A stretch of DNA of 64,000 nt from contig CM075989.1 of NCBI GenBank assembly GCA_038087875.1, forward strand, positions 21,578,001-21,642,000. The letters are read 5' to 3'. The DNA comes from Malacoraja senta (lineage: Eukaryota). Within the stretch, counting starts at the first letter, position 1, and every line of letters begins with the position of its first letter. The notes below the pieces were generated by a model, which made no database searches, was not told the DNA's origin, and was given only the letters and a program-made list of their open reading frames with translations. A program made the translations under genes and the position numbers. Below, in pieces: positions 19,598 to 41,559 of this stretch.

Positions 19598-19815
19598 TAT
19601 TTACTTAAATTAGGCACGTTACAGGACTACAATTGTCATAGACACCAACATTAAGGAACAATATATGTATTGTCATGTTCATATCTAGAGAAATACAGGA
19701 GATAATGTTGTTGGGTTATAATTGTTATGTGTACCAAGGTACAGTGGAACATTTGATTTATGTGTTATCCAGTCAAATGATACCATAGATGAGTACATCA
19801 ACTCCACATGCAAGT

Positions 19816-19995
19816 AGAGACACAAAGTGCTGGAGTAACTTAGCAGGGCAGGCGGCATCTATGGAGAAAAAGGATGGGTGACGTTTCGGGTTGGGACCCT
19901 TCTTCGTACCTGAACTAACAGGTGCAGACTTGATCCGTCACCAATCCTTTTGCTCCAGAGATGCTGCCTGACCCGCTGAATAACTCCAGCACTCT
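19816..19995. mobile_element. Inverted pair of PLE pLTR ends
   Basis: gacacaaagtgctggagtaac... followed by ...ccagagatgctgcctgacccgctgaataactccagcac. Confidence 0.8.
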
Positions 19996-20381: not shown

Positions 20382-21037
20382 ATGTTTCTTGCAGAAGCTT
20401 CTGGAAGGCAGCTAACTAACTGAATAATACAACATTTACCCTGGAACTCAAAACAATCCTGCCAGGGCTTAACACTTGGACCAATCAACAAACAGCAGGT
20501 TAACTTTCTTTCAACATTATTGACATTATTTACAATTCCTTTGCAGCAATCCAATCATATCAATGCATTTAAGTTTGTTTGCAGAGTTTTAATACATATT
20601 ATCAATTAAGAGGAAATGAGGAGAACACCTGGATCTTTCACCATCCTGCATATCAATCTGGGGCTCAGACTGGCCGGCGCCATCCACAGCCTGTAATTTT
20701 CTACTGACAAAGGTCAAGAAATTCTGACAAGTACAGGGATTCTCCACTTTATTGTGTCTTTAATTGGATCAATATTAACACTGTGTCTATCTTTGGTATA
20801 AACCATCATCTGCAGCTCTTTGATTCTATGTATACGTACAAGCAGAAGAGACAGTGCAAAGAGAAAAGAACAAGAGTTTAGAATACATTTGAACATAAGC
20901 ACTGAAGCTTCAGTACTTAAGAGATGTGACAAATCTCACAAGTTGCAGGCAGGAATATTAATGAGTGAGTACTTTAGGCTTTTACTAGGACTCTATTCCT
21001 TGGAGCGCAGGAGGATGAGGGGTGATCTTATAGTCAG

Positions 21038-21071
21038 ACTCTGAAGAAGGGTCTCGACCCGAAACGTCACC
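21038..21071 (+). ncRNA. Minimal hammerhead ribozyme motif (PLE subfamily A)
   Basis: CUGAAGA-A-GGGU(CUCG)ACCC-GAAA-CGUC. Confidence 0.6.
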
Positions 21072-21177
21072 CATTCCGAATATCCAGAGATGCTGCCCGT
21101 CCCACTGAGTTACTCCAGCATTGCTACAATTTTTGATCTTCGTTGTGAGATAACACGGAACCATCGTGAGGGGGGGA

Positions 21178-21481
21178 GGGGTGGCGCAACGGTAGAGTTG
21201 CTGCCTCATGGCGCCAGAGACCCGGGTTCGATCCTGACTACGGGTGCTGTCTGTACGGAGTTTGTACGTCCTGCCCGTCACCTGCGCGGGTTTTCCTCGG
21301 GTGCTCCGGTTTCCTCCGTACAGGTTTGTAGGCAAATTGGCTTCGGTCAAATAGTAAAAATTGTCAACAGTGCGTGTGGGATAGTGTTAATGTGCCAGGA
21401 TCGCTGGTCGGTGCGGACTCGGGTGGGCCGAGGGTCCAGTCTCCGCGCTGTGTCTCTAATCTAAACTAAACTAAAATCTAA
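21178..21481 (+). mobile_element. V-SINE
   Basis: Head, V core with a small deletion, tail. Confidence 0.88.
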
Positions 21482-21519
21482 ACATCGATGAGGAGATGAG
21501 AAAGCAACCAGCACAGTGA

Positions 21520-21733
21520 CATGAACATTGACTTCTCCAATTTCAGGTAGTCCTTGCTGTCTCACTCCTTCCCCTCTCCTTCCCAGCTCTCCCACTGTCT
21601 CCGCCTCTTCCTTTCTTCTTCCCGCCCCACACTCCCACATCAGTCTGAAGAAGGGTCTTGACTCGAAACATCACCTGTTCCTTTGCTCCATAGATGCTGC
21701 CTCACCCGCTGAGTTTCTCCAGCATTTTTGTCT
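21520..21733 (+). mobile_element. PLE subfamily B 3' end
   Basis: atgaacattgacttctccaatttcaggtag = MNIDFSNFR*, then a pyrimidine tract and a degenerate hammerhead core. Confidence 0.8.
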
Positions 21734-22812
21734 AGCCACAGTGACATAATAACTCCAAGTGTCCCTGCACCTAACAACACCCGAGTCACCGGAATTAAAT
21801 TCCCTGGGTCTTGATTGAAGAGTGATTAATTGTAATTTGAGAGATACCAGAAAATAGATCCACCCTTCAGGAAAAAAATTTCATTTAGATTGATCACATT
21901 CATTTTGCGCTTTTCTGTTGGAATCAGATAACTTGTCCAGACGTTTGCAGACACCACAATAGCAGTAACGTGGTGCTTCCTGCAACATGTGGTGCACTAA
22001 TACAGGCAGACACTGACTCAGAGAACTTGTTTTCTTTTAAACAAGATTTCGGATCCTGGACATACAACGGCTTTGTTGTCACAAGCGAAACCCGATCAAA
22101 ATTCCACCTTTAATGGCAGAAACGTCAGAGTAAATGGATCTACCGTAACGGAAGTCGCAGTGAAAGAAAATACAGGTGTACAGGATTCCGTGTCAGAGGG
22201 AGAGTTTAATCAGAGTCCCCGGAGAGGGAAAGCAGGGCCAAGGGCTGGGGGTCGGATATGACCCACTCAATAGAGAGCTGTAGGTTTGCAATAGCAAGCT
22301 CTTAATTCCTGCACAGGGAGTTTGAATAACGTGTTATCATCCTCCGAGTTTAATTCACATGACAGCCAGAAACTGTCTCAACAGCTGCTTGTAAGAACTG
22401 AGACATTTGCTGGAGTCGTCCTCGAGGTATTTACGAAGAGTTTTAATGTGGAATTGAATTACATTTTATCGGAAGGCGCTTTTGTTTGCTGCCGCCGTAG
22501 AGATGCGTTATTGAGATGTTGGCCCAGTTTTTATTGTCACTGGCTGAGAAGCACCAGTTACTGTTAACCTTGTATGAGGCAGCAGCCGCCCACCCACCCA
22601 CAGCGATGTCAAGGGAAGTGATCCTCCTCCCCCCCTGTCCCTGTGACTTCTCGTGTCATTTTGAGTGTATCTCAGAGCATTGGTGTCACCAGCCTGGTTG
22701 ACCTCCCAGTCACAACACAAAGTGCTGGAGGAACTCCGTGGGTGGATGGATGATGGTTTGTGCCGTGACCCTTCTTCACACCCTGAAGACCCCTTCCTCA
22801 GACTTACAATTT

Positions 22813-23139
22813 TTAGTTTAGTTTAGAGATACAGCGTGGGAACAGGAGGCCCTTCGGCCCATCGAGTCCGTGCTGACCAGCGATCCCCGCGCATTAACAC
22901 CACCCTACACACACACACACACACACACTCGGGACAATTTACAATTGCACCAAGCCAAACAACCAACAAACCTGTACGTCTTTGGAGTGTGGGAGAAAAC
23001 CGAAGATCCCGGAGAAAACCCACGCAGGTCACGGGGAGAATGTACAGACTCCGTACAGACAAGTACCCAAAGTCTGGATCGAACCCGGGTCCCTGACGCT
23101 GCGAGGCAGCAACTCTACCGCTGCGCCACCGTGCCGCCC
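22813..23139 (-). mobile_element. V-SINE inserted between inverted PLE ends (22713-22803 and 23150-23290)
   Basis: Full head to tail on minus strand; PLE motifs flank both sides. Confidence 0.85.
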
Positions 23140-23663
23140 TTCAGATTTCTTTGACCCGTAACGTCGCCAGTGTGAAGAAGGATCCCAACCCAAAATGTCG
23201 CCTGTCCATTCCCCCCACCGATGCTGCCTGACCTGCTGAGTTCCTCCAGCACTTTGTGTTTTGCTCAATATTCTAGTACCTGCAGTTCCATGGGTATCCT
23301 GAGCACCCAATCAGTTTGATGAATTCTGCTGCTATCAATGTTGAAAATGAAAATTCCAATTCAAATTCAAAAGCCGTAATTAGCACCATTACCTTTACAT
23401 ATAAGGTTTGAGGTCCACTCTCTGTGTCATTCTTTGTTTCCTTTGTTGTTGGCCCATTCCCTTTGTATCTACAGTATATGACCGGCTCTTGAATCAGGTC
23501 ATATACCTTTCAGGTCAGGTCTGGGGGAGTTCCTCCAGCCACGGGTACCGTGTAATCCCGTGCTACCTGCTCCATGGTCGGATAGTCGGCGAATAAACCG
23601 ACTCCCCCACCTGGTTCACCAGGTGAGGTGGGGGCTGGGGACCCCCAGCAGGACCAAAAACAA

Positions 23664-25070
23664 GAAGCAAAGACGTGGAAGCCAAATAACCGAACGGAAA
23701 CAAAGCCGAAACGCCAAATAACCGAAAGCGAATGAAGCTGAAACACCAACTAACTGAAACGGTGGGACGCCTAAGAGCCAACTCACCGAAAGGCCCCTCT
23801 GCCGAAAAGCCAAATAACAGACATTAAGTAGCCGGGGGGGGGGGGGGGGGGACGACTTGTCAGCGATTGGTCCAGACCCCCACATCCATCACATCACTGG
23901 CCGGTGGAGACGGGAGGGTGGGGTTCATTTTCCCACACAAGCCACAGGTGACTGGGCAATCTGAACCCGAGCACCAATTTGTAAGTGGTCGAAGGAGCGC
24001 ATCCCTCGGGACAGCCCCCACTCTCCTACGGCCACGGCCGCCCTCCAGCTCATCTCCCCCGTGTGGCTGCACTGTGACGGGCTGTGTGTCGGTCGGACGA
24101 TGGCGACGGTCGACAGATTGCTGCCGATAGTCGGACCCTCAGATGGCCAGCGGTCTGGATTAATGCGCCGGATCGGCTGCTGAGCCAGGGTCGCCCCCGA
24201 AACACCTCCAGCAATGAGCTGGATATTCCCGCTGTCAAAGAGAAGCAGCGGCGGCGGTGGCTGTCACCGGCCGCCTCTGACCAACTTGCAGCAGCAACAC
24301 CAGCGGCAGATCAAGTCGGTGAAGAGTTCACACAGTGGGTGAGTGCGGCATCGCCTCCGCTATTCCCCTCCCTCCCCCGGTGTCATCGGTCCCGCTACCC
24401 CCCCCCCCTCCAGCCCTGGGGGGCATCGCCATCGCCATCGCCGCCCCCGCTATCCAACCCCCCACTTAATTAACCAGGTTCCTGAATGTAAGAACTATTT
24501 ATACATGCAACATTTTTGTTTTTAACTCAGTAACTCTTATTTGAGTTTTAATGCCGACCCCGTCCTGTGGGAAGGGCTTGCGGCAGCTGGTTTCATTGTG
24601 CCTTCATTGTTTGTAGGTGTTAATCATTCACCTCTGCTCCACCCAACACTGCCGACGCACAGCCCATCACAGTGCGGCCGCACGGGGGAGACGTGGCGGA
24701 GGGCGGCCGTGGCCATGGCAGAGTGGGGGCTGTCCCGAGGGATGCGCTCCTTCGACAACTTACAACTTGGTGCTCGGGTTCAGAGTCCCCACTCACCTAT
24801 GGCTTGTGTGGGAAAATGTCCCCCACCCTCCCGTCTCCACCGGCCAGTGATGTGATGAACGTGGGGGTCCGGACCAATCGCTGACAAGTCCCGCCCCCCT
24901 GGCGACATCATGTCCGTTATTTGACTTTTCGGCAGAGTGGCCTTTCGGTGAGTTTGTTTTTAGGCATCCCACCCTTTCGGTTAGTTGGTGTTTCGGCTTC
25001 GTCCACTTTCGGTTATTTGGCATTTCAGCTTTGTTTCCGTTCGGTTATTTGGCTTCCACTTCTTTGCTTC
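23664..25070. mobile_element. Foldback-like element with ~420-bp inverted arms
   Basis: 23664-24092 is the reverse complement of 24652-25070; outer parts are built from ccaaataaccgaa-type subrepeats; GC/CpG-rich; no transposase. Confidence 0.75.
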
Positions 25071-26036
25071 GGCTTTTCGTCCTTCGGCGCCACGTCCGGG
25101 TACCTAACCCTATAATGATCTCTATCTTGAATATACGGAGCTGCCAAGCCTCCACAGCCTTCGTGGGTAGTGAGCACCAAAGGTCACCCCTGTCTGGGCA
25201 GGCACAACTCTTCCCATGGAACACAAGGAACTGCAGATGCTGGAATCTTGGGCAAAACATAAAGTGTTGTAGAAACTCAGCGGGTCAGGCAGCATCTGCG
25301 GTGGGAGTGGACAGGTGACGTTTTGGGTCAGGACCTTACTCATCTCAGTCCCGGGGTCAAGGAAAGAGCGTCCATGTCACAGCCCTGTTTCCACCAATCT
25401 TTCCACCGCCACGCACAAGAAACACAAGAAGCGCAATTGTATGCAGATGCCGAGAAGTGTGTTCAGCTCTGACTGAACAATTTCTAATCTTGCGAGGTGG
25501 ACTCCATAAGAAGATCTCAGTCCCGAATGGCTGGTCGCTCATTCTGAGACTGTGATCCCCAGTTCCATATAGAGTGATCTCAGCAACTGCTTGCAAAAAA
25601 CTAAACCATTTACTGAATACATCCTCAAGGTATTTACGAAGAATTTTTAAATGGAATTGAATGATGTTTATCTGCAGTCATTTTCATTTGCCATTTCTGT
25701 AAACTGATTAGCTTTTTAATGTTTACAGAAAATAGAAACACATGGGTTTAAATGTGCATTAAAATATAAAACTTTTTTAAAAAATAGAAATATCTATGCA
25801 TTTTTTAGCAAGTGGGGGAGGAAACAATAGTCTGACTATAATTTTTTTTTCTGGGCTAGAGAGGTTGTTGAACAATGATAATGAGTTGGCACGCTGTTAA
25901 ATGGTCATGAATACTTCATTTAGCAAAGCTTAATATCTCTGGGTCTACGTTAAATACATCTGCAATTATTACAAGCTTTCCCTGTGGAGGTAACATTGAT
26001 AATAACTTTAATTTCCAGGTGGAAACAAGGAACAAG

Positions 26037-26350
26037 GGGCGGCACGGTGACGCAGCGTTAGAGTTGCTGCCTTACTGAGCTGGAGACCAGGGTTCCATCC
26101 TGACCGCGGGCGCTGTCTGTACGGAGTTTGTGCGTTCTCCCCGTGACCTGCGTGGGTTTTCTCCGAGATTTCCGATTTCCTCCCACACTCCAAAGACGTG
26201 CAGGCATGCAGGTAAATTAGCTTGGTAAATGTAAATTGTCCCTAGTGTGTGTGTAGGATAGTGTTAATGCGCGGGGATCGCTGGTCGGCGCGGACCCAGT
26301 GGGCTGAAGGGACTGTTTGCGCGCTGTATCTCTGAACTAAAATTTAAACT
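26037..26350 (+). mobile_element. V-SINE, full length
   Basis: Head, V core, tail. Confidence 0.9.
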
Positions 26351-26482
26351 ATACAGCCGAAGCTGATTACACACAAAGGGACACAAACTGCTGAAGAACT
26401 GATTGTCCACCATGTTATGTCCTAGAGTCATGTAGCATAGAAACAGGCTCTTCGGCCCAACTTGCCCATGCTAAGCAATGCA

Positions 26483-26965
26483 AGATTAGGTCCATTCAAG
26501 TCCAATTAAAGATAGTCTGAAGGTCTCCAATAAGGTAGATTGTATAACATGACTGCTCTCTAGTTGGCAACAGAATGGTTACGTTGCCTGATAACAGCTG
26601 GAAAGGAACTGTCCCTGAATCTGGCGTTTTCACACTTCTGTACCTCTTGCCTGATGGGAGAGGGGAGAAGAGGGGTGAGATTCATCCTTGATGATGCTGC
26701 TGGCCTTGCTGTGGCAGCATGAGGTGTAGATGGAGTCAATGGAAGGGAGGTTGGTTTGTGTGATGGTCTGGGCTACGTCCACAACTCTGCAATTTCTTGA
26801 GGTCATGGCTGTTTCCAAACCATGCTGTGATGATTCCTGATGAAATACTTCATACAGAGCATCTGTAGAAGTTGGTGAGAGTTGTTGGGGACCTGCTGAA
26901 CTTCCCAAGCCTTCTAAGGAAGTAGAGGCACTGATGGGCTTTCTTAGCCATTGCTTTGATATGGC
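26483..26965 (-). mobile_element. Rex1/Babar-like LINE ORF C-terminal relic
   Basis: RVVDVAQTITQTNLPSIDSIYTSCCHSKASSIIKDESHP in ORF 26630-27049. Confidence 0.7.
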
Positions 26966-27192
26966 TAGTCCAGTTTGATTGGACTCCTGCATGCTTTGAT
27001 TTGACCAGATAGCACACAAAACATTTTTTGCCCTTATCTCAGTACACATGAAAATAATGAACCAATACTAATTCTAACCTATCCATGCTCTTGTATTGAT
27101 TGAGTTTAAAACTCTTCAAAATTTGATTTTTTTAATTTGAAATAAAAACTATGCATTGTAAATATGAACAGAAATAGACTTGGTAAATTATC

Positions 27193-27432
27193 ATCTTTAG
27201 CCAGAGGGTGGTGAATCTGTGGAATTTATTGCCACAGACGGCTGTGGAGGCCAAGTCAATGGATATGTTTAAGGCAGAGATTGACAGATTCTTGATTAGT
27301 ACGGGTGCCAGGGGTTATGGGGAGAAGGCAGGAGAACGGGGTTAGGAGGGAGAGATAGATCAGCCATGATTGAATGGCTGAGTAGACTCGATGGGCCGAA
27401 TGGCCTGATCCTGCTCCAACAACTTACGAACT
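27193..27432 (+). mobile_element. CR1 3' end
   Basis: cagagggtggtgaatctgtggaat...gggccgaatggcct. Confidence 0.88.
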
Positions 27433-28022
27433 TATCGAGAATGAGATTTGAAGACAGATGTATTCTCATTACATGAGCACCATTGATCTTCAACACACTT
27501 CCTCTCATCAGACCACCAACATCAACTGCATCCCTCGCCACAAAACCACCTGAGACTTCTGAATCCTCCCTTTCTAGACCACCAACAAAACCAAAATCAC
27601 TTCCTCACATTAAATCACCGGCAAAATCAGATGTGTTTCTTAATGTCAGACCACAAAGGAACTCAAACTCTAGACCACCAGTACAACTGATGCAACTATT
27701 TCCAGTTAGGCTGCTAAACAAAAAAACCCAGAGGAGAATAAATGAGAATCCAAGAAAATATGTTTTTATTGCCTGTCCAAAACATGTACTCATGAAAACT
27801 GGGATGGGATGCATCTTGCCAAATCCCTGTATTATGTCCAGATGCAATGTGATAAAACTGTCATTAGCAGCCGGGACCCATCCTGGTTGCTGGGTAATAA
27901 ACGCTTACAGTAGAACGCCTATTGTTTCAATTCCAGCAAGTATGGGAATCAGTCTTTAGATCACACTTCTCTGTTTTTTCTTGCCTTTTTCAAAATTATT
28001 TTGCCTGAGTTTTGAAATATTT

Positions 28023-28612
28023 AGGAGGTCCTACTGCAGTTGTACAGGGCCCTGGTGAGACCGCACCTGGAGTATTGTGTGCAATTTTGGTCTCCTAAGT
28101 TGAGGAAGCACATTCTTGCTGTTGAGGGAGTGCAGCGTAGGTTCACCAGGTTAATTCCCGGGATGGCGGGACTGACATATGATGAAAGAATGGGTCGACT
28201 GGGTTTGTATTCACTGGAATTTAGAAGGTTGAGAGGGGATCTTAGAGAAACATATACAATTCTTGGACAGGTTAGATGCAGGAAAAATGTTCCTGCTGCT
28301 GGGGGAATCCAGAACCAGGGGTAAGAATAATTTAGGACTGAGATGAGGAAAACCTTTTTCACACAGAGAGTTGTCAATCTGTGGAATTCTCTGCCACAGA
28401 AGTCAGTGGAGGCCAATTCACTGGATAGTTTCAAGAGAGAGTTACAGTCGATTTAGCTCTTAGGGCTAATGGAATCAAGGGATATGGGGGGGAAAGCAGG
28501 AACGGGGTACTGATTTTAGATGATGAGCCATGATCATATTGAATGGCGGTGCTGGTTTGAAGGGCTGAATGCCTACTCCTGCACCTATTTTTCTATGTTT
28601 CTATGTTTCTAT
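28023..28612 (+). mobile_element. CR1 3' fragment, (CTATGTTT)n tail
   Basis: LYRALVRPHLEYCVQFWSP...RLGLYSLEFRRLRGDL. Confidence 0.95.
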
Positions 28613-28650
28613 TCCTTACTGCAATTATAATGCTGTTCTGAAATTAAATT

Positions 28651-28933
28651 GGCAGCGGTAGAGTTGCCACCTTACTGCGCCAAGGACCCGGGTTCGTTCC
28701 TGACCACGGGTGTTTGTCTGTACGGAGTTTGAATGTTCTCCCCGTGACCTACGCGGGTTTTTTTTACCCCGGAGCTACGGTTTCCTTCCCGCACTCTATA
28801 GATGTACAGGAGGTTTTGTAGGTTAATTGGTTTGGTAAAATTGTAAAAAATGTTCCTAGTGTGTGTAGGATAGTGTTAGTGTGCGGGGATCGCTGGTTGG
28901 GGAAAGGCCTGTTTCTGTGCTATATCTCTAAAA
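28651..28933 (+). mobile_element. V-SINE
   Basis: Diverged head and V core. Confidence 0.8.
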
Positions 28934-29336
28934 ACTCGAACGGAAATCATCCCCACAACTGATATTGTCCAAGCTCCTCAATCCATGGTTTTAAAACCTC
29001 AGTGTCTATTCTTAGATTTCACATCACCTCCACTTAACACCCCTATTAATTTGTTACCGTCTATTTGGCCTTTAAAAAAGATGGATGTGTTCACACTCTT
29101 TCTCCCCTTGGTGCCCCTTTGTGCCACACCCACTGCACGAGGGAAGTAGCAGTGAGGTTGGAGGTAATATATTACTTTGCCGTGCTTTACGGGATTCCAT
29201 CACAGTGTCAAGTTATTTTTATTGCTTTGGGAACACTGCACACTTTGAATATTAGTTGCACAGCCGGCAGCAACACTCTAGGTAACTCCCTCCCTCCTTC
29301 TGACAACCGATACCCAACGCATCAACGTCACCTCAC

Positions 29337-29632
29337 CGGTGGCGCAGCGGTAGAGTTGCTGCCTTACAGCGCCAGAGACCCGGGTTCGATCCTGACTATG
29401 GGTGCTTGTCGGCAGGGAGTGTACGTTCTCTCCGTGACCTGCGTGGGTTTTCTCTGAGATCTTCAGTTTCCTCCCACACTCCAAAGACGTGCGGGTTTGT
29501 AGGCCCGGTATAAAATGTAAATTGTCCCTCGTGTAGGATAGTATTAGTGTGCGGGATTGCTGGTCGGTGCACACGGTGGGCCGAAGGGCCTGTTTCCATG
29601 CTGTATCTCTAAACTAAACTAAACTAAACTAA
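29337..29632 (+). mobile_element. V-SINE
   Basis: A/B boxes, V core, (AAACT)n tail. Confidence 0.9.
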
Positions 29633-30612
29633 AAAGTTCTGTAGATTATCACTCCAGGTTGCTGGATTATGTATGAACAGCTACCCACAACCCACAGCCC
29701 ACGGCTGGTTGACTACCTGTATTTGCAAATGCTATCTAATTCATTCTCATATTGTAGCCAGTATCAAGTTAGGAACTTGTCTCACTGTTACAATCTTCAT
29801 ATCGTATTGAAACTATTTGATTTGCAAAGTTCCTAGAACATCAAGAAACAACTAGCAAGGAACTGCAGATGCTGGTTTACAACAAAAAAACGACACACAG
29901 TGCTGGAGTAACTCAGTGAGACAGGCAACATCACTGGAGAACATGGATAAGTGGATGGAACATGGACACATGGATAGGACAGGTTTGGAGGGGTATTGGC
30001 AAAACGTAGGCAGGTGGGACGTGTAGCTGGGACATGTTGGCCCGTATGGGCAAGTTGGGCTGAAGGGCCTGTTTCCATGCTGTATCACTCTGTGATGTTT
30101 TGGGTCGGGACCCTTTATCCGACATTAATTTACTTTCATTACCACCACCCTGGCCACGCTCTCATTTCACTCCGACCATTATAAAGAAGGTACAGATGTC
30201 TGAAAGCCATGACTACCAAGTTCACACATTCAGTATAAGAGTAGGGAGGTTATGTTACAGTTGTATAAGACTTTGGTGGGGCCATATTTGGAGTTTTGTG
30301 TTCAGTTTTGGTCACTGAGTTATAGGAAAGATTTTATTAAGATGTAAAGGGTGTAGAAAAGATTTAGTTGAGGCAGGTACCATCACAATGTTTAAAAGAT
30401 ATTTGGACAGGCACATGGTTGAGAAGGGTATGAGCCAAATGCTGGCAAGCAGGACTAATGAGCTCCATCTACACTAGTCCCACCTGTCCATACTTGCCCT
30501 CCATAACCTGTCATATCCATCTAAATCTGTCCTATCCCAAAAAGGAGGGGGTTGAGTTATTACCTAAAATTGGAGCATTCAATGTTCATACTGTCGGGGT
30601 GTAAGCTACCCG

Positions 30613-30646
30613 AGTCTGAAGAAGGGTCTCGACCCGAAACGTCACC
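30613..30646 (+). ncRNA. Minimal hammerhead ribozyme motif (PLE subfamily A), consensus copy
   Basis: agt-CUGAAGA-A-GGGU(CUCG)ACCC-GAAA-CGUC-acc; adjacent to an inverted GIY-YIG end at 30555-30610. Confidence 0.65.
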
Positions 30647-31029
30647 CATTCCTTCTCTCCAAAGATGCTGCCTGTCCCGCTGAGTTACTCCAGCTTTTTT
30701 GTGTCCATGTTCCAGCGAATTAAAGAACAACTTTCTTGCAAAACACCAGCTGGCTCATCAATACCCTTTGGGGAAGGAATGCTGTTATCTTGACTCATTC
30801 TGACTTATTCCCGACCCACAGTTATGTGGTTGCTCTTGGAAAGAAATGATCTAACAAGCCAGTCATTTCAAGAGCAATTGATTCTTGATGAGGCCATTGT
30901 TCTTCATGAAGAACAGGCATTCTTGTTGCCCAGTTTTTTCCCCAACCATCATCTGGAGTTCCCACCAAGCAGAGCTTCCATCCATTGGCGAGCATTAAAG
31001 AACAAAGTGGAAGGTAAGTTTCCAGCTGG

Positions 31030-31365
31030 TCATAGAGTCATACAATGTGGAAACAGGCCCTTCAGCCCAACTTGCCCACACTAGCCAACATGTCCCAGCT
31101 ACACTAGCCTCCCCTGCCCGCGTTTGGCCCATATCCCTCTAAACCTGTCCTATCCATGTACCTGTCTACCTGTTTCCTAAACATTGCAATCGTCCCAGCC
31201 TCAACTACCCACTCTGGCAGCTTGTTCCATACGCCCATCACCCTTTGTGTGAAAAAGTTACCCCTCAGATTCCTATTAAATCTTTCCCCCCTCATCTTAA
31301 ACCTATGTCCTCTGGTCCTCGATTCCCCTACTCTGACTCCATGCGTCTATTCCTCTCATGATTCT
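31030..31365 (-). mobile_element. CR1 3' end
   Basis: ORF 31104-31295 RGNFFTQRVMGVWNKLP; 3' end gggctgaagggcctgtttcc is shared with the SINE tail. Confidence 0.92.
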
Positions 31366-31496
31366 ATACATGATGTTAAAGATTTTTCTTCGACGCGCAG
31401 TTTAGTTCCTTGGATCGTGTCCTTGTTCGTGAAGCAGGACATCACGGGAATTCAATTTTTTTTCATGGACAGGGAATCCCGTAATCATTCAAAATG

Positions 31497-31779
31497 TTTA
31501 GTTTAGTGATACAGCGCGGAAACAGGCCCTTCGGCCCACCGGGTCCATACCGACCGGCGATCACCGCACATAACTGTAACTCTGTCCTACACTAGGGACA
31601 ATATTTACATTTATACCAAGCCATTTAACCTACAAACCGGTACGTCTTTGGAGTGCGGAGTCTCGGAGAAAACCCACGCAGGTCACGTACAAACTCTGTA
31701 TAGAAAAGCCAGGATCGAACCTGGGTCTCTGGTGCAGTGAGCGCTGTACCACTCTACCACTGCGCCACCCGTGCTGCCC
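31497..31779 (-). mobile_element. V-SINE
   Basis: Head and tail present, with deletions. Confidence 0.8.
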
Positions 31780-32082
31780 TGGAAAAGCTAGTTGTGGAAT
31801 GTTGCAGAAAAGCTAAATATACTGTAGCTCTCTTCACAGAATACAGAAAGGCTAGATTCTTTAAAAATAAAATTGCTGATGTCAATATTTACAGCATATC
31901 AGAAAGCCAATCCGGTTTAACAAACTAATGCTGGAAATCTCTTTCAATTGAGGTTATCAGAGTCAAAGCTCTCCAATATTTGAATATTCCATGTGTCACT
32001 TTAACATACATTTCCGATGAACTCAACATGTTCTATAAATGAGGTTAGTCAACAATTCCATTATCCTTAACTTTAGGTTTCC

Positions 32083-32305
32083 AGATGATGAATCTGTGGA
32101 ATTCGTTGCCACAGGCGGCTGTGGAGGACAATGGATTTAAGGCGGACATTGACAGATTCTTGATTAGTACGGGTGTCAGGGGAGAAGGCAGGAGAATGGG
32201 GTTGAGCGGGGAAAATAGATCAGCCACGATTGAATGGTGGAGTAGACCTGATGGGCTGAATGGCCTAATTCTGCTCCTAGAACTTATGAACATATGAACT
32301 TATGA
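32083..32305 (+). mobile_element. CR1 3' end
   Basis: NLWNSLPQ..FKADIDRFL; (ACTTATGA)n tail. Confidence 0.88.
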
Positions 32306-33366
32306 AGTTAGATACTTGCAGCTGGAGATTCCCTTGGCCTCCCTTCAAGGTTAATGTTTTAAAAGATAAAAGATGAATGATAACAATTACTGAATGCTTA
32401 CCCTGAGTGACTAGAAAAAAAATCTCTTCTAAATAAATGGAAAAGAAGCAAAACCAGTTTATTCCCCTCTGAGTACTGAGTGTACGTGCTATTAAGCGGG
32501 CTATTTTTATGCCAAGTTTGACCTGCTCTATATTTCAACAGACTTTTGTTTCTATGATCTACAAGAGTAAACAGGACTGGGATGATGGAGGAGGCTCTGT
32601 ACTGTTTGTGTGCATTGATCGGACATTGCGATGGCTTGCACCATCTCCATTCCAGTGGTGGCCAGCTGACTCTACCTTCCTTTGGCATGTTGGACATGAT
32701 TAAGGGGCTTGTTCCATCAGTCGCAAACATTGCTCTTGAGGCAGAGATCTCAGCAAGGAACCCCAAGGGACTGTGGAGGCCAGCACATGGAGCAAACTGC
32801 AAACAGGGACAGTTTCTTTCCAGCTTTTATCAGGCAACTGAACCGTCCTCTCACCAACTAGAGAGTGGCCATGACCCCCCTATCTACCCCATTAGAAACC
32901 TTTGAACTATCTTTGATTGGACTTTACTGCACTAAATGTTCAGTTTACTTTCATTTAGTTTAGTTTAGTTTATTGTCACATGTACCGAGGTACAGTGAAA
33001 AGCTTTTTGTTGCATGCTATCCAGTCAGTGGAAAGACAATACATGATTACAATCGAGCCATCCACAGTGTGCAGATACAGGATAAAGGGAATAACATTTA
33101 GTGCAAGATAAAGTCCAGTAAAGTCTGATTAAAGATAGTTGGAATGTTCTACCTCAGTACACGTGAGAATAATAACTAAACTAAACTAAACTGCTGGAGT
33201 AACTCACCTGGTCAGGCAGCATCTGTGCAGGTAAAGGGATGGATGATGTTTTGGGTCGAGGACTGAGAATAGTGATCTTAGTGATCTCTAGCTCATTCTT
33301 AACTAGGTTGGTGGAAAACCCTGACAGTATTCTGACATAGATCGCAAACCAGCGTGGAACTGATGA

Positions 33367-33467
33367 TGATGATATGATTCTGTTCCTGATGATATGATTC
33401 TCTTCCTGATGATATGATTCTCTTCCTGATGATATGATTCTCTTCCTGATGATGTGATTCTTCTTCC
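33367..33467 (+). repeat. Minisatellite, 20-bp unit TGATGATATGATTCTCTTCC, about 5 copies
   Basis: Read directly from the sequence. Confidence 0.92.
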
Positions 33468-33914
33468 CTCTATTTGATTGCTTTGGCAGGATGAAATTAG
33501 GCTAGCCTTGGTGTCTTTGGTTGAAGATTCACATGCCTGACCTTTGACAGTTGGTACAAAACAAGACAGCTTACCAATGGTTAAATGGTTCTTTATTCTC
33601 ACAAGTTCTGAGGTACAGTAAAATTCTTTTTTTGCAAACAGTTCAGTAAAAAATTGCTCTCAACAAATACAATCCCAGATGAAGTACAACGTGGATGGAA
33701 ATAGTCCACTGAGACAATATGCAAGAGTTGCCATGTTTTGCCGCCATTTCCAAAGTCCCAGACGCGGCTGGCCATAACGGCCCATTGCAGCAGTCGCCTG
33801 CGACATGATCGGCCCGTGATCCATCTCTTCGCCCGGCCACCATTCAACATCAGGGAGCCTCCCGCAGCTGACCCCACTTCCTCTTACTGCCCTTTTTGTT
33901 ACACTTCAGACCAT

Positions 33915-34378
33915 TAGACTTTAGAGATACAGCGCGGAAACAGGCCATTCAGCCCACCGAGACCGCGCCGACCAGCGATCCCTGCACACTAACACTATCC
34001 CACGCACTTGGGATAATTTAACATTTTTACCAGAACCAATTAACCTACAAACCAGCACGTCTTTGGAGTGTGGGAGGAAACCGGAGCACCCAGAGAAAAC
34101 TCACGCGGTCACAGGGAGAACATCGAGAGAGTTAGATAGAGCTCTAGGGGCTAGTGGAGTCAAGGGATATGGGGAGAAGGCAGGCACGGGTTATTGATAG
34201 GGGACGATCAGCCATGATCACAATGAATGGCAGGGCTGGCTCGAAGGGCCGAATGCCCTCCTCCTGCACCTATTTTCTATGTTTCTATGTAATAAGCAAA
34301 CTGCACACAGACGGCACCCGAGGTCAGGATCGAACCTGGGTCTCTGGTATCTCTCCCAGCTGCGCCACTCTGTGGCCC
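33915..34378 (-). mobile_element. V-SINE containing a plus-strand CR1 tail (34124-34290)
   Basis: SINE split at gggagaac|CR1|gcaaactgcacacagac. Confidence 0.85.
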
Positions 34379-34996
34379 TGTTCTATGCTACATCAGTATT
34401 TGACACAGTATATAACATGAGCTGAACAGTCGTACGGCAGTAGAGGTTGTCTCTCCTTCTCGGGCATTACAATTCCCCGCTGCAAAGTCCCCTCCCCGCA
34501 AACACACGCGAACAGATGGTCATTTTCCCTCCACTCTGCAGACTTCATAATTGTTGCTGCCAAATTAGGTGCGGAATTTGGAAAAGTTTGTGGCTCCAGG
34601 CTTATACTTCCAGAAAGTAAGTCTGATATTGGCAGGGGCTGCCTTGCTTGTAATTCCATAGCCTCCAGCATTTACCTTGGAATAATCCTTGGAACGAGAG
34701 AAGCCTACTGAGATGGAACTGAGTAAGTGGGGGGAAACTGGTACTCGTATCACTTGTGGTTTGTCACTCTCTGTTTTTCTGACACAACACTTATGTTATT
34801 AACTTCAAAGCGGAAAATCTTGGCAGTCAATATATATGTTGAAACTAAGTTGGGAAAAAATGGAAAATTCAACATACCAACTATTGAACAATCCACGAAT
34901 CCTCCAACACTTTGATATTGGAATCAAAGAGATTGATCACGATTAACTGGGGAGGTTAGGGAAAAGCCTCGTTTGAACGTATAAGATTGCACCTGG

Positions 34997-35805
34997 GGTG
35001 GCAAGGTGGCGCAGCGGTAGAGCTGCTGCCTTACAGCACCAGAGACATGGGTTCGATCCTGACTACAGGTGCTTGTCCATATGGAGTTGGTACGTTCTCC
35101 CCGTGATCTGCGTGGGTTTTCTCCGAGATCTTCGGTTTCTTCCCACACTTCCAAAGACATAGATACATAGATACATAGACATTAGATGCAGGAGTAGGCC
35201 AATCGGCCCTTCGAGCCAGCACCGCCATTCAATGTGATCATGGCTGATCATCCACAATCAGTATCCAATTCCTTCCTTCTCCTCATATGCCTTGACTCCG
35301 CTATCTTTAAGAGCTCTATCTAACTCTCTCTTGAAAGCATCCAGAGAATCGGCCTCCAATGCCGAAAATTGGCAGAGAATTCCACAGTTCACAACTCTCT
35401 GGGTGAAAAGGGTTTTCCTCATCTCAGTGCTAAATGGCCTACCCCTTATTGTTAAACTATGGCCCCTGGTTCTGGACTCCCACAACATCAGGAACATGTT
35501 TCCTGCCTCTAGCGTGCCCAATCCCTTAATAATCTTGTATGTTTCAATAAGATACCCTCTCATGCTTCTAAATGCCAGTGTATATAAGCCCAGTCGCACC
35601 ATTCTTTCAACATATGACAGTCCCGCCATCCCGGGAATTAACCAGTTTGTCATTCATACAGCTTTGTAGGTTAATTGGCTTGATGTAAATGTAAAATTGT
35701 CCCTCGTGTGTGTAAAGTAGTGTAAGTGTGCGGGGATTGCTGGTCAGTGCAGACTCGGTGGGCCAAAGGGCCTGTTTCCGTGCTGTATCTCTAAACTAAA
35801 CTAAA
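34997..35805 (+). mobile_element. V-SINE containing a minus-strand CR1 (35160-35645)
   Basis: SINE split at ccaaagacat|...|catacagctttgtagg; ORF 35258-35653 is the CR1 C-terminus. Confidence 0.9.
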
Positions 35806-35916
35806 TTTATCAGTCTATACTGCCCTCCCCCACCATATATAACACTCCATTGGGAATACGGAATTATTGAATGACCTGCATAGGTATCACTTCAACTGTG
35901 TACAAGTGTAAATATG

Positions 35917-36191
35917 TTTAAGAAGGAATTGCAGATGCCAGAAAAATCGAAGGTAGATAAAAATGCTGGAGAAACTCAGCTTGTGAGGCAGCATCTATGG
36001 AGCGAAGGAATAGGTGACGTTTTGGGTCGAGACCCTTCTTCAGACCCGTTTTCTCTGAGATCGAGATACCGCGACTCTTCTAGGACCCGTCTGAAGAAGT
36101 GTCTCAACCCGAAAACGTCACCTATTCCTTCGCTCCATAGTCCCGCTGAGTCTCTCCAGCTGAGTCTCTCCAGCATTTTTGTCCTTCTTAA
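35917..36191. mobile_element. Palindromic PLE insertion with a 15-bp TSD
   Basis: acaagtgtaaatatg (35902-35916) and acaagtgtaagtatg (36192-36206) flank inverted pLTR ends. Confidence 0.85.
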
Positions 36192-36721
36192 ACAAGTGTA
36201 AGTATGAGATTATAAAATTTGATATGTTCTGACGTGCATATGGTGATACTTTTCTGGATCCTTTCAGTAACCCAGCATAGAGGCAAACTTCCAGCAGTTT
36301 TTCAAGGCCAACCTTGTTAATGTTTTGTGGGCATTTCCAAGTTGAACATGGCTTACAATCAATGGGGCCTGGCCAACTCTCTGCAATTGCAGCTCTTAAA
36401 GCCTTGCGGCTCCCAATTTGAATTGTTACCTGATATTTGCAGACTAATGAAATAAGAGCGTGGAAATATCCAGTTCAGGAACAGACCGTTTGGCCCATGA
36501 TGTGAATTTAAACTAATCTTTTCTAATCTCATGGTCTATATCCCACCATTTACAGCCTGGCCTTGTGCCCGCTGAAATGGCTCCTTAAATGTTGCGATTG
36601 AGTCCGTTTCCATCACCTCCCCAGGCAGCATGCACCCTCCACTCTTTGTGTAAAAGAGTGTCACACAAAACTTTCCCCCTCTCACCTTAACGCTTTAGTA
36701 TCTGACATTTCCACGCCACTG

Positions 36722-37388
36722 GGTGGCATAGGACAGTTGCTCCCTTACAGCGCCAGAGACCCGGGTTCGATCCTGGCTACGGGTGCTGTCTGTACGGAGT
36801 TTGTGCGTTCTCCCCGTGACCTGCCTGGGTTTTCCCTAGGTGCTCCAGTTTCCTTCCGCGCTCCAAAGACGTACAGGTTTGTTGGTTAATTGGCTTGGTG
36901 TAATTGTAAATTATCCGTATTATGTGTAAGATAGTGCTGGTGTGCGTGAATCATTGGTCAGCGCGGTCTAAACTAAACATATAAGATTGTTAAGGGCTTG
37001 GACACGCTAGAGGCAGGAAACATGTTCCCGATGTTGGCGAAGTCCAGAACCAGGGGCCACAGTTTAAGAATAACGAGTAAGCCATTTAGAACGGAGACGA
37101 GGAAACACTTTTTCTCACAGAGAGTGGTGAGTCTGTGGAATTCTCAGCCTCAGAGGGCGGTGGAGGCAGGTTCTCTGGATGCTTTCAAGAGAGAGCTAGA
37201 TAGGGCTCTTAAAAATAGCTGTCAGGCAATATGGGGAGGAGGCAGGAACGGGGTACTGATTGGGGATGATCAGCCATGATCATGTTGAATGGCTCGAAGG
37301 GCCGAATGGCCTACTCCTGCACCTATTGTCTATTGTCTCAGTGGGCCAAGGGGCATGTTTCTGCACTGAATCTCTAAACTAAACTAAA
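36722..37388 (+). mobile_element. V-SINE containing a CR1 3' fragment (36978-37337)
   Basis: ORF 36998-37279 RTRGHSLRI..FFSQRVVSLWNS; SINE tail resumes at ctcagtgggcc. Confidence 0.9.
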
Positions 37389-37644
37389 CAAGCTGGGGTT
37401 GGGGGGGGGGGGAATGGCTGACTGTTTACACTATCCATTAGACATAGGAGTAGAATGAGGCCAATTGGCTCATCCAGACTATGAATATCCATATCTCACA
37501 TAGTTTGACATACTTCTACTAGGCTGTCCCTCAGTCTCCAATGCTCCAGACAACAACAAAAAACAAATTTGTCCAAACTTATAGCAAATAGTCTCCAATT
37601 TAAGCAACATTCCGCTGATAGGTGAAAACATTATTTTAAATTCT

Positions 37645-37785
37645 TCCCACATTGACCTTTCCATACAGGGCCTCCTCCATTGCCAGAGTGAGACAACTTG
37701 CAAACTGGAGGAACAGCACCTCATATTCCGCTTGAGCCGCTTGCAACCCAATGGTATGAATGTTGAATTCTCCAATTTTAAGTAA
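37645..37785 (+). pseudogene. Penelope-like GIY-YIG endonuclease C-terminal fragment
   Basis: SHIDLSIQGLLHCQSETTCKLEEQHLIFRLSRLQPNGMNVEFSNFK*, with the E..I..L..L.P.G.N motif of PLE GIY-YIG. Confidence 0.85.
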
Positions 37786-37805
37786 CTAAATAAACACATC
37801 ACTTC

Positions 37806-37841
37806 CAGTCTGAAGAAGGGTTTCGGCCCGAAACGTTGCCT
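37806..37841 (+). ncRNA. Minimal hammerhead ribozyme motif (PLE subfamily B)
   Basis: CUGAAGA-A-GGGU(UUCG)GCCC-GAAA-CGUU; core starts ~25 nt after the GIY-YIG stop. Confidence 0.6.
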
Positions 37842-38474
37842 GTTTCCTTCGCTCCATAGATGCTGCTGCACCCGCTGAGTTTCTCCAGCATTTTTGTGTA
37901 CCTTCGATTTTCCAGCATCTGCAGTTCCTTCTTTAACACTTCCTTTCCTTCCCCCACTTTCTTTACTCCCCCCTCTCCCCTGTGCCCTCACCCCCCCCCC
38001 CTCCCCTGGACTTGCACCTATTTCTCTCCACCCTCTCCCCCTTCCACCTATATTCCTTCCTCTAGTACAAACATAATGGGCCAAAGGGCCTGTCCTATAC
38101 TGTTCCATGGTAGAACAGGTTTAATGGGCTGAATGGACTGCACACTTCCCTATGTTCCCAAAGGTGATACTATTTTAGAGTTTCCTCCTCCCAACAAGGG
38201 AACTGTTTCCTTTGTCAGGATACAGAAGGGAAAGTTTGCAAATGAACAAGGATCCCGACTGAGTTACTCCAGCACTTTATGGATTTTTTCCGTAAACCAG
38301 CATCTGCAGTTTCTCGTGCCGGCACCATATGGGATTGGATGGGAATGTGAGAGTTAACAGTCAACATTCTGGCCAGTATCACAATATCAATTTAATATGT
38401 AGGCAATGATATTCACCACAAATATTTACCTTGACATTTAGCATAAGGCATTAGTATATTGTCACTCATTAGGG

Positions 38475-38730
38475 AGTCTTGCAGCGTGGAAAACAGGCCC
38501 TTCAGCCCAACTTGCTCGCACTCACCAACACGTCCCATCTACACTAGTCCCGCCTGCCTGCGTTTGGCCCATATTCCTCTAATCCTGTCCTATCCATGTA
38601 CCTGTTCAAATGTTTCTTAAACATTACAATAGTACCACCCTCAACTACCTCCTCCGGCAGCTCGTTCCATACGTCCATACGGTGTAAAAATGTTACCACT
38701 GAGGTTAATATTTACTCTTTCCTCCCTCAC
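38475..38730 (-). mobile_element. CR1 3' end
   Basis: Homologous to 31030-31365. Confidence 0.85.
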
Positions 38731-39036
38731 CTTGTAAAGCAGTTCCCAGAGGACACACCTTCTCACCGGATGTTTACAGACAGAGTTTTACTCTCAGGCA
38801 CCATATAGAGTGTCTGCTCATTTAAACCCGTGCAGCAAGGATGCAGGGTGAAGCTATCTAGCCTGCCAGCAACCGGCGTGTTAACAGATGGATAGTGTTG
38901 GCCAGTACGCACATGGTTTCCCACATGGGAGACTTGTGGATGTGGTTCCCAGCCAAGGAGATGATGTTTCCCTGCTTCTCCTCTTGCAAGGCAATTGGGT
39001 GGTGCATAACACAAGCGTACTGCGTTCAAACGCACC

Positions 39037-39313
39037 TGTAGAGTTGCTGCCTTACAGCGCCAGAGACTACGGGTGCTGTCTGTACAGACTTTGTATGTTC
39101 TCCTGCATGGGTTTTCCACGGGTGCTCCAGTACCCCCCCCCCCCCCACACACCAAAGAGGTACAGGTTTGTAGGTTAATTTGGCTTTGGTAAAAATTGTA
39201 AATTGTCCCAAGTGTGTCGGATAGCGCTAGCGTGCGGGGATCACTGGTCGGTGCGGACTCAGTGGGCCGAAGGACCTGTTCCTGTGCTGTATCTCTAAAC
39301 TAAACTAAACTAA
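39037..39313 (+). mobile_element. V-SINE
   Basis: V core and tail. Confidence 0.85.
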
Positions 39314-41559
39314 GCTGGGATCTTAATGTCATTTTATAAAAGCGTAAAATTAAATTTATGGTAGAGTAGATATATGATCATCAGCTATGTATTTGAAAAC
39401 CAAAATATAATTTTTGCTTATTTTAAACTAAACTAAACTAAACTATTATGATGGTTTAATGCCATTTTATGAATGTCATTATGAATGTTCTTTGACCTCA
39501 GCCAACTCTTTGTGTCTGATTAATCCTCAATTGATAAAATAAATATGAAAGAGGAATACCATTGCGAAGATCTAACGTCGTCTCTCTAGGTAAACGTGGA
39601 GGGAATGATTCCACGCCCCCTACAGGAATGACATCCATTAGTCTTGCTTCGAGGGCAAGGACTGTGCTATTCCGCCCATTAAAATTAATGGATGGAAAAT
39701 TGCACTCCGTAGCTTTGCGATACCGCTCCAACTGAGAGTTGGGGCATTAGCTCTCGTTGCTTCTCATCGCAGCTTCCAAGTGTCTTTCAAGTGACTTCCT
39801 GAAATTGGGCCTAAGTATCCCTTTCACCAGTTTTGTGGGATTCAATGTTAATTGAAACATTGTTGATAATCCTCAATGAAATGAAGCACGAAGACTCATT
39901 CAATAAGCCTCGGAAAGCTAAGGCTCAGGGGGTTAGGACAAGGTAATGACTCCCGATAAAAGATATTTCTCAGCTGATTAAGCTTATTCAGAGTCAGACA
40001 TCTGGAACACCAGTGAAGAGAGTACTCTTTCAAGTACTTGCCAGTTTTGCCCTTAACATCTTCATTTTAAATATTATTATAGCTGATTACGTTGTGTGGG
40101 ATACGGCTATGGGCAGGATTACAGATTGTTGTTCATTATATAAGATTGGAGGTAAGAAGATAATATGGTTGTTATTAATTTGAGAGATAAGTTAGACTTG
40201 GGCTAATGTGACATGTTCAGTTTTAATTTTAGGAAGGAATACTTACAGGGAATTGTAAGAGAGTAGATCGAGTTTCAATAAATCTTAGGATGAATTCCAG
40301 ATCCATCACTTGTTCAAAGGGAGTTCAGGTCAAAGTTAGGAATATAACATTCCCATTAAGTGTTGATCCCTACAGGGTGTATGGAATTGGTATTCACCTT
40401 TGCATTTCAATAGGATTACATTTGTAGCTGAGAGTCTGAGCGCATCTTAAAACGTGCGTGCAATTTACTGAATTACTTCACTTGCAATTCACTCTCAAAA
40501 AATGTATAATAATAAATATACAATAATGACTGCAAGCGAATTGGGAGGAAAAAAAATGTGATAATTACTCTGATTTTCTACTTGCAACTCCAATTAAACT
40601 GGGGGCCGTGCCAGAGGTCAAATGCAAACGAGGGTTCGTGAAGGGAAGGAAAAAGAACAATGACCAAGCAACTGGGTCAAGAGGCAATATCACAAATAGT
40701 TCAAGTCTAGACAGTAATGAATAGTCTTATAATTTGCGTTTGATGACTTTATAATGTCTAACCTTTGCTACTGCAATAAAAGCACCTGGTCTGTGCTGGA
40801 CTTCCCATTTCCTCATGAACAGCAGTAGCAACGGCCCCAGCCCATTGTTAAAGTAGGCTGCCCATGTTTGCCATGAAATGGGAGCCAAAATACCGCACAA
40901 TGCTCACACACAAATACTAATCCCCAGGCACCATTTCAAACAAGTGTTATTTTATTTACCCAGATTCATCTCGACAGGAAAGTACTGGTGGCTAATCCAT
41001 ACTCTAACACAACATTGATCTATATGCACACCAGTATTAATCTGACTACAGTTTTATTCATGTAAGACTATCAATAACTGCTTAGGGTCTTTTGGAATCT
41101 AGGAAAAATTGCCTTGGTAAAGTTGTCACACTGGGACGTAAATCTTTTCTTCTACATTCAAGCAAAGCATAATCTCTTGTTGTTGCTTGTCACTCTATTT
41201 TAACCACAGTTCACTTTGAATCAGAATTTAAAATAACAGCTTTTGTGATAGTGTTTACCCATTTAATTTAAATAGATTAAGTGGTTTCACTAATTACTCA
41301 CTTAATTGCCAAAGGAAATGCGATTTAGATGTTTTGTGATTCCAGCTTTGTTTTTTTCAAGTCAATTGATCTTTCATACTTTGCCATATTTGATATGCTT
41401 TCCTCTTTTAAATGAATATTTCAGACAAGCATAGATACAATTATTAGAGACCAGGCTTGCGCGTGACAAATGCAAGCATTCTGTTTAGAGAGGGTCATTC
41501 TGAGCATTCCTTCACATTATTTCACGTTAAAACATGACTAAAGTTAGTTGTGTGGTCAT

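What the first reader, a model, noticed from the sequence alone, without database searches (positions are those of the whole stretch)
30613..30646. High-copy minimal hammerhead ribozyme carried by Penelope-like elements
Seen: the motif CUGAAGA-A-[helix II]-GAAA-CGU(C/U) recurs on both strands (e.g. 5076, 12165, 16435, 21041, 30616, 37810, 42819, 47546), always inside the same ~120-300 bp repeat and sometimes shortly after a GIY-YIG stop codon. Known: PLE pLTRs carry minimal type-I hammerheads whose palindromic helix III (here ACGU) is thought to act as a dimer. Inference: this genome holds a very large population of candidate self-cleaving motifs that could cut or process host pre-mRNA. Caveat: helix I looks only 2-3 bp (gt/ac), so many copies may be inactive.
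Basis: partly seen in the sequence, partly recalled or inferred. Interest (0 to 1): 0.8.

Follow-up and report, generated by a model that had tools for sequence, protein, structure and literature searches.

The report
Short Penelope inserts with minimal hammerheads
The motif is a real minimal hammerhead-ribozyme sequence at the front of very abundant short inserts left by a Penelope-like jumping gene, a known kind of element, and most scattered copies are damaged or unpaired, so they likely do not cut host RNA.

Summary
Observation confirmed. There are 9 strict motifs against 0 in 50 shuffles, inside a repeat with 53 copies in 64 kb (8% of the window). Four copies follow a GIY-YIG endonuclease C-terminus, whose named relatives are skate and ray Penelope-like (Neptune-type) proteins. 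The motif fits the published minimal type-I hammerhead of Penelope pLTRs, except that helix I has only 2 bp. The same core pattern in unrelated metagenome contigs shows a strongly covarying helix I, once directly behind a Neptune-type ORF. So the family is genuine and of a known kind; this scan noted it before on other DNA. The host-cutting idea is poorly supported: 7 of 33 core-spanning copies keep the motif, 4 keep helix I, G12 decays as a CpG, no close tandem pair has two intact cores, and a downstream pyrimidine tract is predicted to mask helix II. New detail: copies begin 0-4 nt before the core (20 of 36) and end at two tail points. They are therefore likely reverse transcripts of uncleaved RNA, running from a start just before the hammerhead. 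Activity and genome-wide copy number are untested.

The parts
30614..30645 (+). Minimal type-I hammerhead motif: helix I 5' strand 30614-30615, core 1 30616-30622, extra A 30623, helix II 30624-30635, GAAA 30636-30639, palindromic helix III 30639-30642, C17 30643, helix I 3' strand 30644-30645. Predicted cut between 30643 and 30644.
   Evidence: Sequence; strict match; fits the consensus in supplement Fig. S3 of PMC4209133 except for the 2-bp helix I
30613..30711 (+). Whole short insert (pLTR head): begins 3 nt before the core and ends at the first tail point (+95)
   Evidence: Boundaries from the 53-copy alignment
30649..30664 (+). Pyrimidine tract ending in AG, followed by ATG at 30665-30667. 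Predicted to pair with core 1 and helix II (off fold); also resembles a 3' splice site (consensus recalled).
   Evidence: Folds; no covariation support for the hairpin
30551..30611 (-). Inverted, 5'-truncated piece of the GIY-YIG endonuclease C-terminus joined head to head to the hammerhead copy
   Evidence: blastn E 4e-8 and 1e-7 to other endonuclease pieces, tblastn E 0.013
12100..12385 (-). Longer copy: endonuclease C-terminus (12296-12379), stop, 98-nt UTR, intact hammerhead (C3 12195, subfamily with U17/G1.1)
   Evidence: stretch 12090-12400 laid on public runs
37645..37940 (+). Copy with 46-aa endonuclease C-terminus (37645-37782), stop, intact hammerhead (C3 37810) and full tail
17589..17876 (-). 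Endonuclease C-terminus, UTR and hammerhead with helix II deleted (C3 17669)
21509..21743 (+). Endonuclease end, UTR and hammerhead with decayed helix III (C3 21645)
16249..16592 (.). Tandem plus head-to-head cluster of three copies; intact hammerhead at C3 16465 (-)
53590..54108 (.). Complex insertion: endonuclease piece (+), two - strand copies and an inverted + strand copy
3687..61212 (.). Range over which the 53 dispersed copies lie. Other core-intact copies (C3 at 5076+, 21041+, 47576-) keep only 1 bp of helix I.

Best explanation
The motif is the minimal type-I hammerhead of the pseudo-LTR of a Penelope-like (likely Neptune-type) retrotransposon, and the dozens of dispersed copies are short inserts, likely dead on arrival and likely made from uncleaved element RNA. 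Inferred steps: transcription starts a few bases before the hammerhead; the element's protein starts reverse transcription at one of two internal sites about 90 and 130 nt downstream, as shown for the anole element; it runs off the RNA 5' end and leaves a 95-135 bp insert, often with an inverted partner. In the source element the ribozyme would cut after position 17 only as a dimer through the ACGU palindrome, and likely only with help from the element's protein. Lone genomic copies then decay neutrally and would rarely cut host RNA.
For: Shown: motif far above chance. Endonuclease C-terminus upstream of 4 of 53 copies. 54 relatives of the 46-aa piece; the longer named ones come from Leucoraja, Hypanus and Rhinoraja, carry a weak GIY-YIG match (P0001, P0163, P0168, below Pfam cut-off) and a CX2-5CxxC linker (P0132, P0163, P0168). 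The core pattern, which fixes no helix I base, finds 101 distinct flanked sites in metagenome contigs: helix I is 3 bp or more in 72 of 101, position 17 is never G, and 27 clusters average 3.07 bp against 0.96 shuffled (0 of 10,000). In L002 the motif lies 130 nt behind an RT + CxxC linker + GIY-YIG ORF. Eight head-to-head pairs within 62 bp against one tail-to-tail pair at 67 bp. 3' ends are bimodal: 19 at +87-97, 5 between, 24 at +120-137, of 53. 5' ends: 20 of 36 at -4..+2, p 6e-9, matched by loose ends with unlike flanks at 12196-12199 in 4 of 4 public runs. Starts at the cut site: 4 of 16, p 0.11, not enriched. Literature: dimer requirement and low activity (PMC4209133); protein-assisted cleavage, uncleaved RNA as main template, two internal RT starts giving the tail (PMC11167929).
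Against: No cleavage or RNA-end data. No full-length element and no Penelope RT in the window, so the clade rests on relatives. Helix I (one G-C plus one U-A or U.G pair) is weaker than the six 2-bp cases among 56 published rows, which are all G-C pairs. No pair changes on both sides among 21 window copies. The active dimer is 15 kcal/mol above the best dimer fold even for the bare 34-mer (the model ignores tertiary contacts). C3 is G in 4 of 31 copies; of three of them in the tree, two fall in one weakly supported older clade, so some source elements may have spread without a working core. The transcription-start reading of the 5' pile-up rests on a recalled initiator consensus; the same CAG is also a possible splice acceptor.
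Confidence: 0.72

Rival explanations
1. The hammerhead is vestigial in this lineage: helix I has shrunk below function and the sequence is kept as promoter, splice or protein-binding signal of the pLTR.
For: Helix I of 2 bp against 3 or more in 72 of 101 relatives. Helix II probability 0.00-0.19 in 7 of 7 window matches against median 0.57 in 95 relatives. C3 to G in 4 of 31 copies. Ribozyme mutants did not impair insertion in vitro (PMC11167929).
Against: The four hammerhead-region changes of the starred subfamily all keep core and pairs. Core cells are better kept than flank cells. 20 of 101 relatives also have 2 bp, and 32 of 95 also have a masked helix II.
Confidence: 0.17
2. The 5' pile-up comes from splicing, not from a start site: the CAG before the core is a 3' splice site, and spliced RNAs were the templates or supply a longer helix I.
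For: Pyrimidine tract plus CAG directly before the core, and donor-like G/GTA at the endonuclease stop in 5 of 5 pieces (consensus recalled). In D. virilis the intron end maps to the 5' end of helix I (PMC4209133).
Against: Upstream flanks are unrelated repeats or inverted copies, not a shared exon. Joining at the stop-codon donor would give the same bases before the core, so helix I would not grow. No joint at the predicted sites among the 15 joints shown of 47 (32 not shown).
Confidence: 0.15
3. One reading: many copies are active and cut or process host pre-mRNA as dimers formed within long introns or between transcripts.
For: Density of one copy per 1.2 kb; 4 copies with a complete minimal motif; a same-strand intact pair 4.3 kb apart (12195, 16465). 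Endonuclease pieces of the family sit inside skate and ray gene models.
Against: Neutral CpG decay of G12. No close intact tandem pair; close neighbours are mostly inverted and would form double-stranded hairpins. Predicted off fold. Published minimal hammerheads cleave weakly even as dimers, and no reads ended at the anole cut site.
Confidence: 0.07

Closest known systems
Minimal hammerheads (min-HHR) in pLTRs of metazoan Penelope-like elements (Cervera and de la Pena 2014, PMC4209133; read: parts 1-2 of 4 of the main text, parts 1-2 of 3 of the supplement)
   Same: Core boxes, extra base between 9 and 10.1, G10.1-C11.1, palindromic ACGU helix III (29 of 56 rows of Fig. S3 by my count), location behind the endonuclease, mostly dispersed single copies
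   Different: No cartilaginous fish among the 56 rows. Helix I is 2 bp with a single G-C pair. Local density far exceeds what the reported 4,000 (coelacanth) and 9,000 (Xenopus) motifs per genome imply.
Poseidon element of Anolis, PAc (Frangieh et al. 2024, PMC11167929; read: parts 1-2 of 4)
   Same: Hammerhead in the pLTR, two 3' end points about 35-40 nt apart (tail), uncleaved RNA as likely template
   Different: Different clade (relatives here carry the Neptune/Nematis linker). ORF start is not located here. The sharp 5' start at the hammerhead is not described in the parts read.
Neptune-type element on metagenome contig loci L001/L002
   Same: Same core pattern 130 nt behind the GIY-YIG stop; inverted upstream copy; endonuclease C-terminus 48% identical over 25 aa
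   Different: 4-bp helix I; downstream sequence unrelated (no blastn hit)
Animal non-LTR retrozymes (bioRxiv 10.64898/2026.07.22.740005; read: parts 1-2 of 5 and found passages)
   Same: Non-coding hammerhead-bearing derivatives of pLTRs; reported in the one chondrichthyan sampled
   Different: Defined by tandem units with complete hammerheads; none found in this window

Membership tests
Minimal type-I hammerhead of Penelope-like elements | Core boxes CUGANGA, GAAA, UH | tested here: met
   Consensus and finding copy intact; core, helix II and palindrome all kept in 7 of 33 spanning copies
Minimal type-I hammerhead of Penelope-like elements | Extra base between 9 and 10.1; G10.1-C11.1 pair | tested here: met
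   A in 34 of 34; G 32 of 34, C 32 of 39 with 6 T at a CpG
Minimal type-I hammerhead of Penelope-like elements | Palindromic helix III for dimer pairing | tested here: met
   ACGU is the consensus; its CG is intact in 23 of 42 copies
Minimal type-I hammerhead of Penelope-like elements | Helix I of about 3 bp or more (published >80% consensus) | tested here: not met
   2 bp in 5 and 1 bp in 2 of 7 window matches; 2-bp cases exist in print (6 of 56 rows, all G-C) and in 20 of 101 relatives
Minimal type-I hammerhead of Penelope-like elements | Covariation of helices | tested here: inconclusive
   None on both sides within 21 window copies; strong across 27 clusters of unrelated relatives
Minimal type-I hammerhead of Penelope-like elements | Self-cleavage as a dimer | not testable with these tools
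   Folding only
Endonuclease-bearing Penelope-like element | Motif in a pLTR behind a C-terminal GIY-YIG domain | tested here: met
   4 of 53 copies; the window pieces alone score no Pfam family, relatives give weak GIY-YIG hits
Endonuclease-bearing Penelope-like element | Inverted 5'-truncated partners and a 30-40 bp optional tail | tested here: met
   8 head-to-head pairs within 62 bp; bimodal 3' ends; features as in PMC8557442 passages
Neptune clade | CX2-5CxxC linker between RT and endonuclease | tested here: inconclusive
   Present in skate and ray relatives and in L002; that part of the ORF is not in the window; Nematis shares the linker
Neptune clade | RT phylogeny | not tested
   No Penelope RT in the window
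Non-LTR retrozyme | Tandem units each with a complete hammerhead | tested here: not met
   No such array; 0 of 12 close tandem pairs with two intact cores
Rfam hammerhead families | Match at gathering score | tested here: not met

The most novel reading that the evidence does not exclude
Skate-type genomes hold the largest known hammerhead population: a SINE-like 95-135 bp mini-element of up to about a million copies, made when the Penelope protein reverse-transcribes only the capped head of its own RNA. Its ribozyme is held off by a downstream pyrimidine tract and switched on by the element's protein, so the 10^5 intact copies could become cleavable in host introns when the element is expressed.
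Probability: 0.12. Interest if true: 0.7.

Novelty: new member of a known kind. Interest (0 to 1): 0.36.

Why it matters
The kind is published; a cartilaginous-fish family of it was not found in my paper searches. Two points could still be useful. First, the sharp start just before the hammerhead, together with two tail ends, gives a genomic footprint of the template RNA and says it was uncleaved. That bears on the open question of what Penelope hammerheads are for. Second, if the window's density is even roughly typical, the genome holds far more minimal hammerheads than the 4,000-9,000 reported for coelacanth and Xenopus, which makes a strand-bias test of harm to host transcripts statistically easy.

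Tried and rejected
Whole-genome count: no genome is held, so copy number is unmeasured. Rfam: nothing. Expression: no RNA holder listed; only contigs were available, so no RNA ends could be read, and summed depth is not copy number. The 'other letters' table was cut (40 shown, 58 not), so it was not used for core conservation. Search with P0001 hit only its LINE-type RT half, because P0001 is a chimeric gene model. Viral contigs: 0 matches. Host gene: 299 stop-to-stop peptides of 66 aa or more gave 1 Pfam hit, an RT fragment at 2-595 that matches LINE-type RTs; short exons would be missed. Competing hairpin as a selected structure: no covariation, and slid controls pair nearly as well (79.7% and 85.2% against 86.4%), so it is only a predicted fold. 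Copies starting at the cut site: 4 of 16, not significant. Longer helix I through splicing: not gained. Tandem retrozyme: rejected. Lunse et al. 2017 on dimer cleavage could not be read; I saw its reference and a review's passages only (PMC6765202). One search returned an unrelated paper. Paper searches listed no paper on hammerheads of skate or ray Penelope elements; subscription papers and Repbase/Dfam were not searched, and the retrozyme preprint's supplement was not available. 'Penelope' does not occur in the main text of the skate genome paper or the Squalomix preprint.

Full report
Observation. The sequence at 30613-30646 is as described. A strict pattern gives 9 matches on both strands, including all 8 listed positions; 50 dinucleotide shuffles give none. 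A profile built from 16 seed copies finds 53 copies, 8.1% of the window, with mean pairwise identity 0.79 among 34 long copies. Rfam sees nothing; that its models need fuller helices is my inference.

Anatomy of the motif. Core 1 is at 30616-30622, then an extra A, a 4-bp helix II with a 4-nt loop, GAAA, the ACGU palindrome and C17 at 30643. The predicted cut lies between 30643 and 30644. This fits the consensus of Cervera and de la Pena (PMC4209133; I read parts 1-2 of 4 of the text and parts 1-2 of 3 of the supplement). There 29 of 56 listed motifs have the same ACGU by my count, and none is from a cartilaginous fish. The exception is helix I: 2 bp here with one G-C pair, while the six 2-bp cases in that table are all G-C pairs.

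Is it a ribozyme family or a look-alike? Among 21 window copies no pair changes on both sides, so the window alone gives no covariation. Non-CpG core cells match consensus in 342 of 359 cases against 2283 of 2608 downstream, but copies are related. The one starred subfamily (99/98) differs from consensus at four hammerhead positions: a loop base, U-A to U.G in helix II, C17 to U and U-A to U.G in helix I; all are tolerated. The stronger test came from outside. Of 108 distinct sites, 101 had full flanks. Helix I was 3 bp or more in 72 and 2 bp in 20, position 17 was never G, and 27 clusters averaged 3.07 bp against 0.96 when flanks were shuffled (0 of 10,000), with A-U/U-A and G-C/C-G swaps (clusters are not phylogenetically independent). 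In L002 the motif lies 130 nt behind an ORF with RT, CxxC linker and GIY-YIG. These contigs come from other organisms: the skate-type downstream sequence has no hit there.

The carrier. Four of 53 copies follow an endonuclease C-terminus and stop at 25-110 nt. The 46-aa piece at 37645-37782 has 54 relatives. Of eight looked up, six are named from Rhinoraja, Hypanus and Leucoraja and two are unnamed. P0132 reads as a Penelope RT-linker-endonuclease ORF with a CX2-5CxxC linker, which marks Neptune and Nematis (PMC8557442, passages). Pfam support is weak: GIY-YIG below cut-off in three relatives, nothing for the window pieces or P0132. Insertion structure is typical of Penelope elements: 8 head-to-head pairs within 62 bp against 1 tail-to-tail pair at 67 bp, and an inverted endonuclease piece against the finding's own copy. 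The host is probably a skate or ray; this is inferred from the relatives.

What the ends say. 3' ends fall at +87-97 (19 copies) or +120-137 (24), with 5 between, of 53. This matches the tail and the two internal RT starts shown for the anole element (PMC11167929, parts 1-2 of 4). For 5' ends I set aside 10 copies that keep native upstream sequence and 7 that start beyond +45; of the remaining 36, 20 start at -4..+2 of C3 (p 6e-9). In 4 of 4 public runs laid on 12090-12400, contigs leave the element at 12196-12199 into unlike flanks (384 contigs at one place in X19, agreement 0.33; 896 rows not shown). Starts at the predicted cut site are not enriched (4 of 16, p 0.11). So the template kept the whole hammerhead. 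The bases around -3 fit an initiator consensus (recalled), and D. virilis Penelope has an internal TATA-less promoter (PMC2377424, passages), so a start site is my preferred reading. It would also explain why helix I cannot be longer. A splice acceptor at the same CAG is the rival; no matching joint was among the 15 shown of 47. In three families of relatives, starts lay within 4 nt in 2 of 27, 3 of 16 and 5 of 11, and one family clustered at 13-19 nt. A pile-up near the hammerhead is therefore not unique to this genome, though its position varies.

Would the copies cut? Of 33 copies that span the core, 7 keep core, helix II and ACGU, and 4 of them keep the 2-bp helix I. The CpG holding G12 is intact in 19 of 40, as expected for neutral decay. 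None of 12 same-strand pairs under 400 bp has two intact cores. Helix II forms in the bare 34-mer (probability 0.98) but drops to about 0 once 19 more downstream bases are added, because the purine run pairs with a pyrimidine tract. The active dimer lies 15 kcal/mol or more above the best fold (tertiary contacts are ignored). The same masking is predicted for 32 of 95 relatives, and the hairpin shows no covariation, so it is a prediction, not a shown switch. Published minimal hammerheads are inactive as monomers and weak as dimers; the anole one needed protein and was dispensable for insertion. Pfam showed no host exon among 299 peptides.

Scale. No genome is held. If the window were typical of a 2.2-Gb skate-sized genome (size from a passage of PMC10115646), it would imply about 1.8 million fragments and 1-2 x 10^5 intact motifs. 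This is an extrapolation from one window and may overshoot. One run gave 67,715 contig pieces on the 311-nt stretch, which shows abundance but is not a copy number.

Verdict. A real, very abundant new member of a published kind.

Noticed in passing
window 30649-30667 and equivalents; loci L001, L042, L089: A pyrimidine tract ends in AG 19 nt after the predicted cut site, with ATG two bases later in the window family. One family of relatives has a tract and AG at or within a base of the same distance. This may be a 3' splice site that places the cut near a branch point.
   Followed up: partly
window 12293-12300, 17779-17786, 21543-21550, 37778-37785, about 30560: The endonuclease stop codon sits inside a donor-like G/GTA sequence in 5 of 5 pieces. 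It may be a pLTR intron donor or a by-product of Arg/Lys followed by stop.
   Followed up: partly
window copies with C3 at 23172, 51520 area, 22780 area, 53754: C3 is G in four copies, mostly of an older-looking type; a source element without an intact core may have spread.
   Followed up: partly
proteins P0001, P0124, P0126, P0163: Skate and ray gene models end in the Penelope endonuclease C-terminus (a neuromedin-U receptor, an ATP synthase c subunit, a DUF4518 protein): exonisation or annotation artefact.
   Followed up: no
L001 1124-2587 and L002 1-1527: Nearly full-length Neptune-type element on one metagenome contig, with a frameshift near the 5' end, a 3' hammerhead and an inverted upstream hammerhead copy.
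   Followed up: partly
window 57190-58643: A 1.45-kb AC-type microsatellite array, which explains the long six-frame ORFs there.
   Followed up: no
window 2-595, 28037-28438, 45527-45925, 63378-63737: LINE-type RT and 3'-end fragments. SINE-like repeats and short CTAAA runs are also frequent by eye.
   Followed up: no
window 33367-33467: Five tandem 20-bp units that each contain CTGATGA but no second core box; not hammerheads.
   Followed up: no
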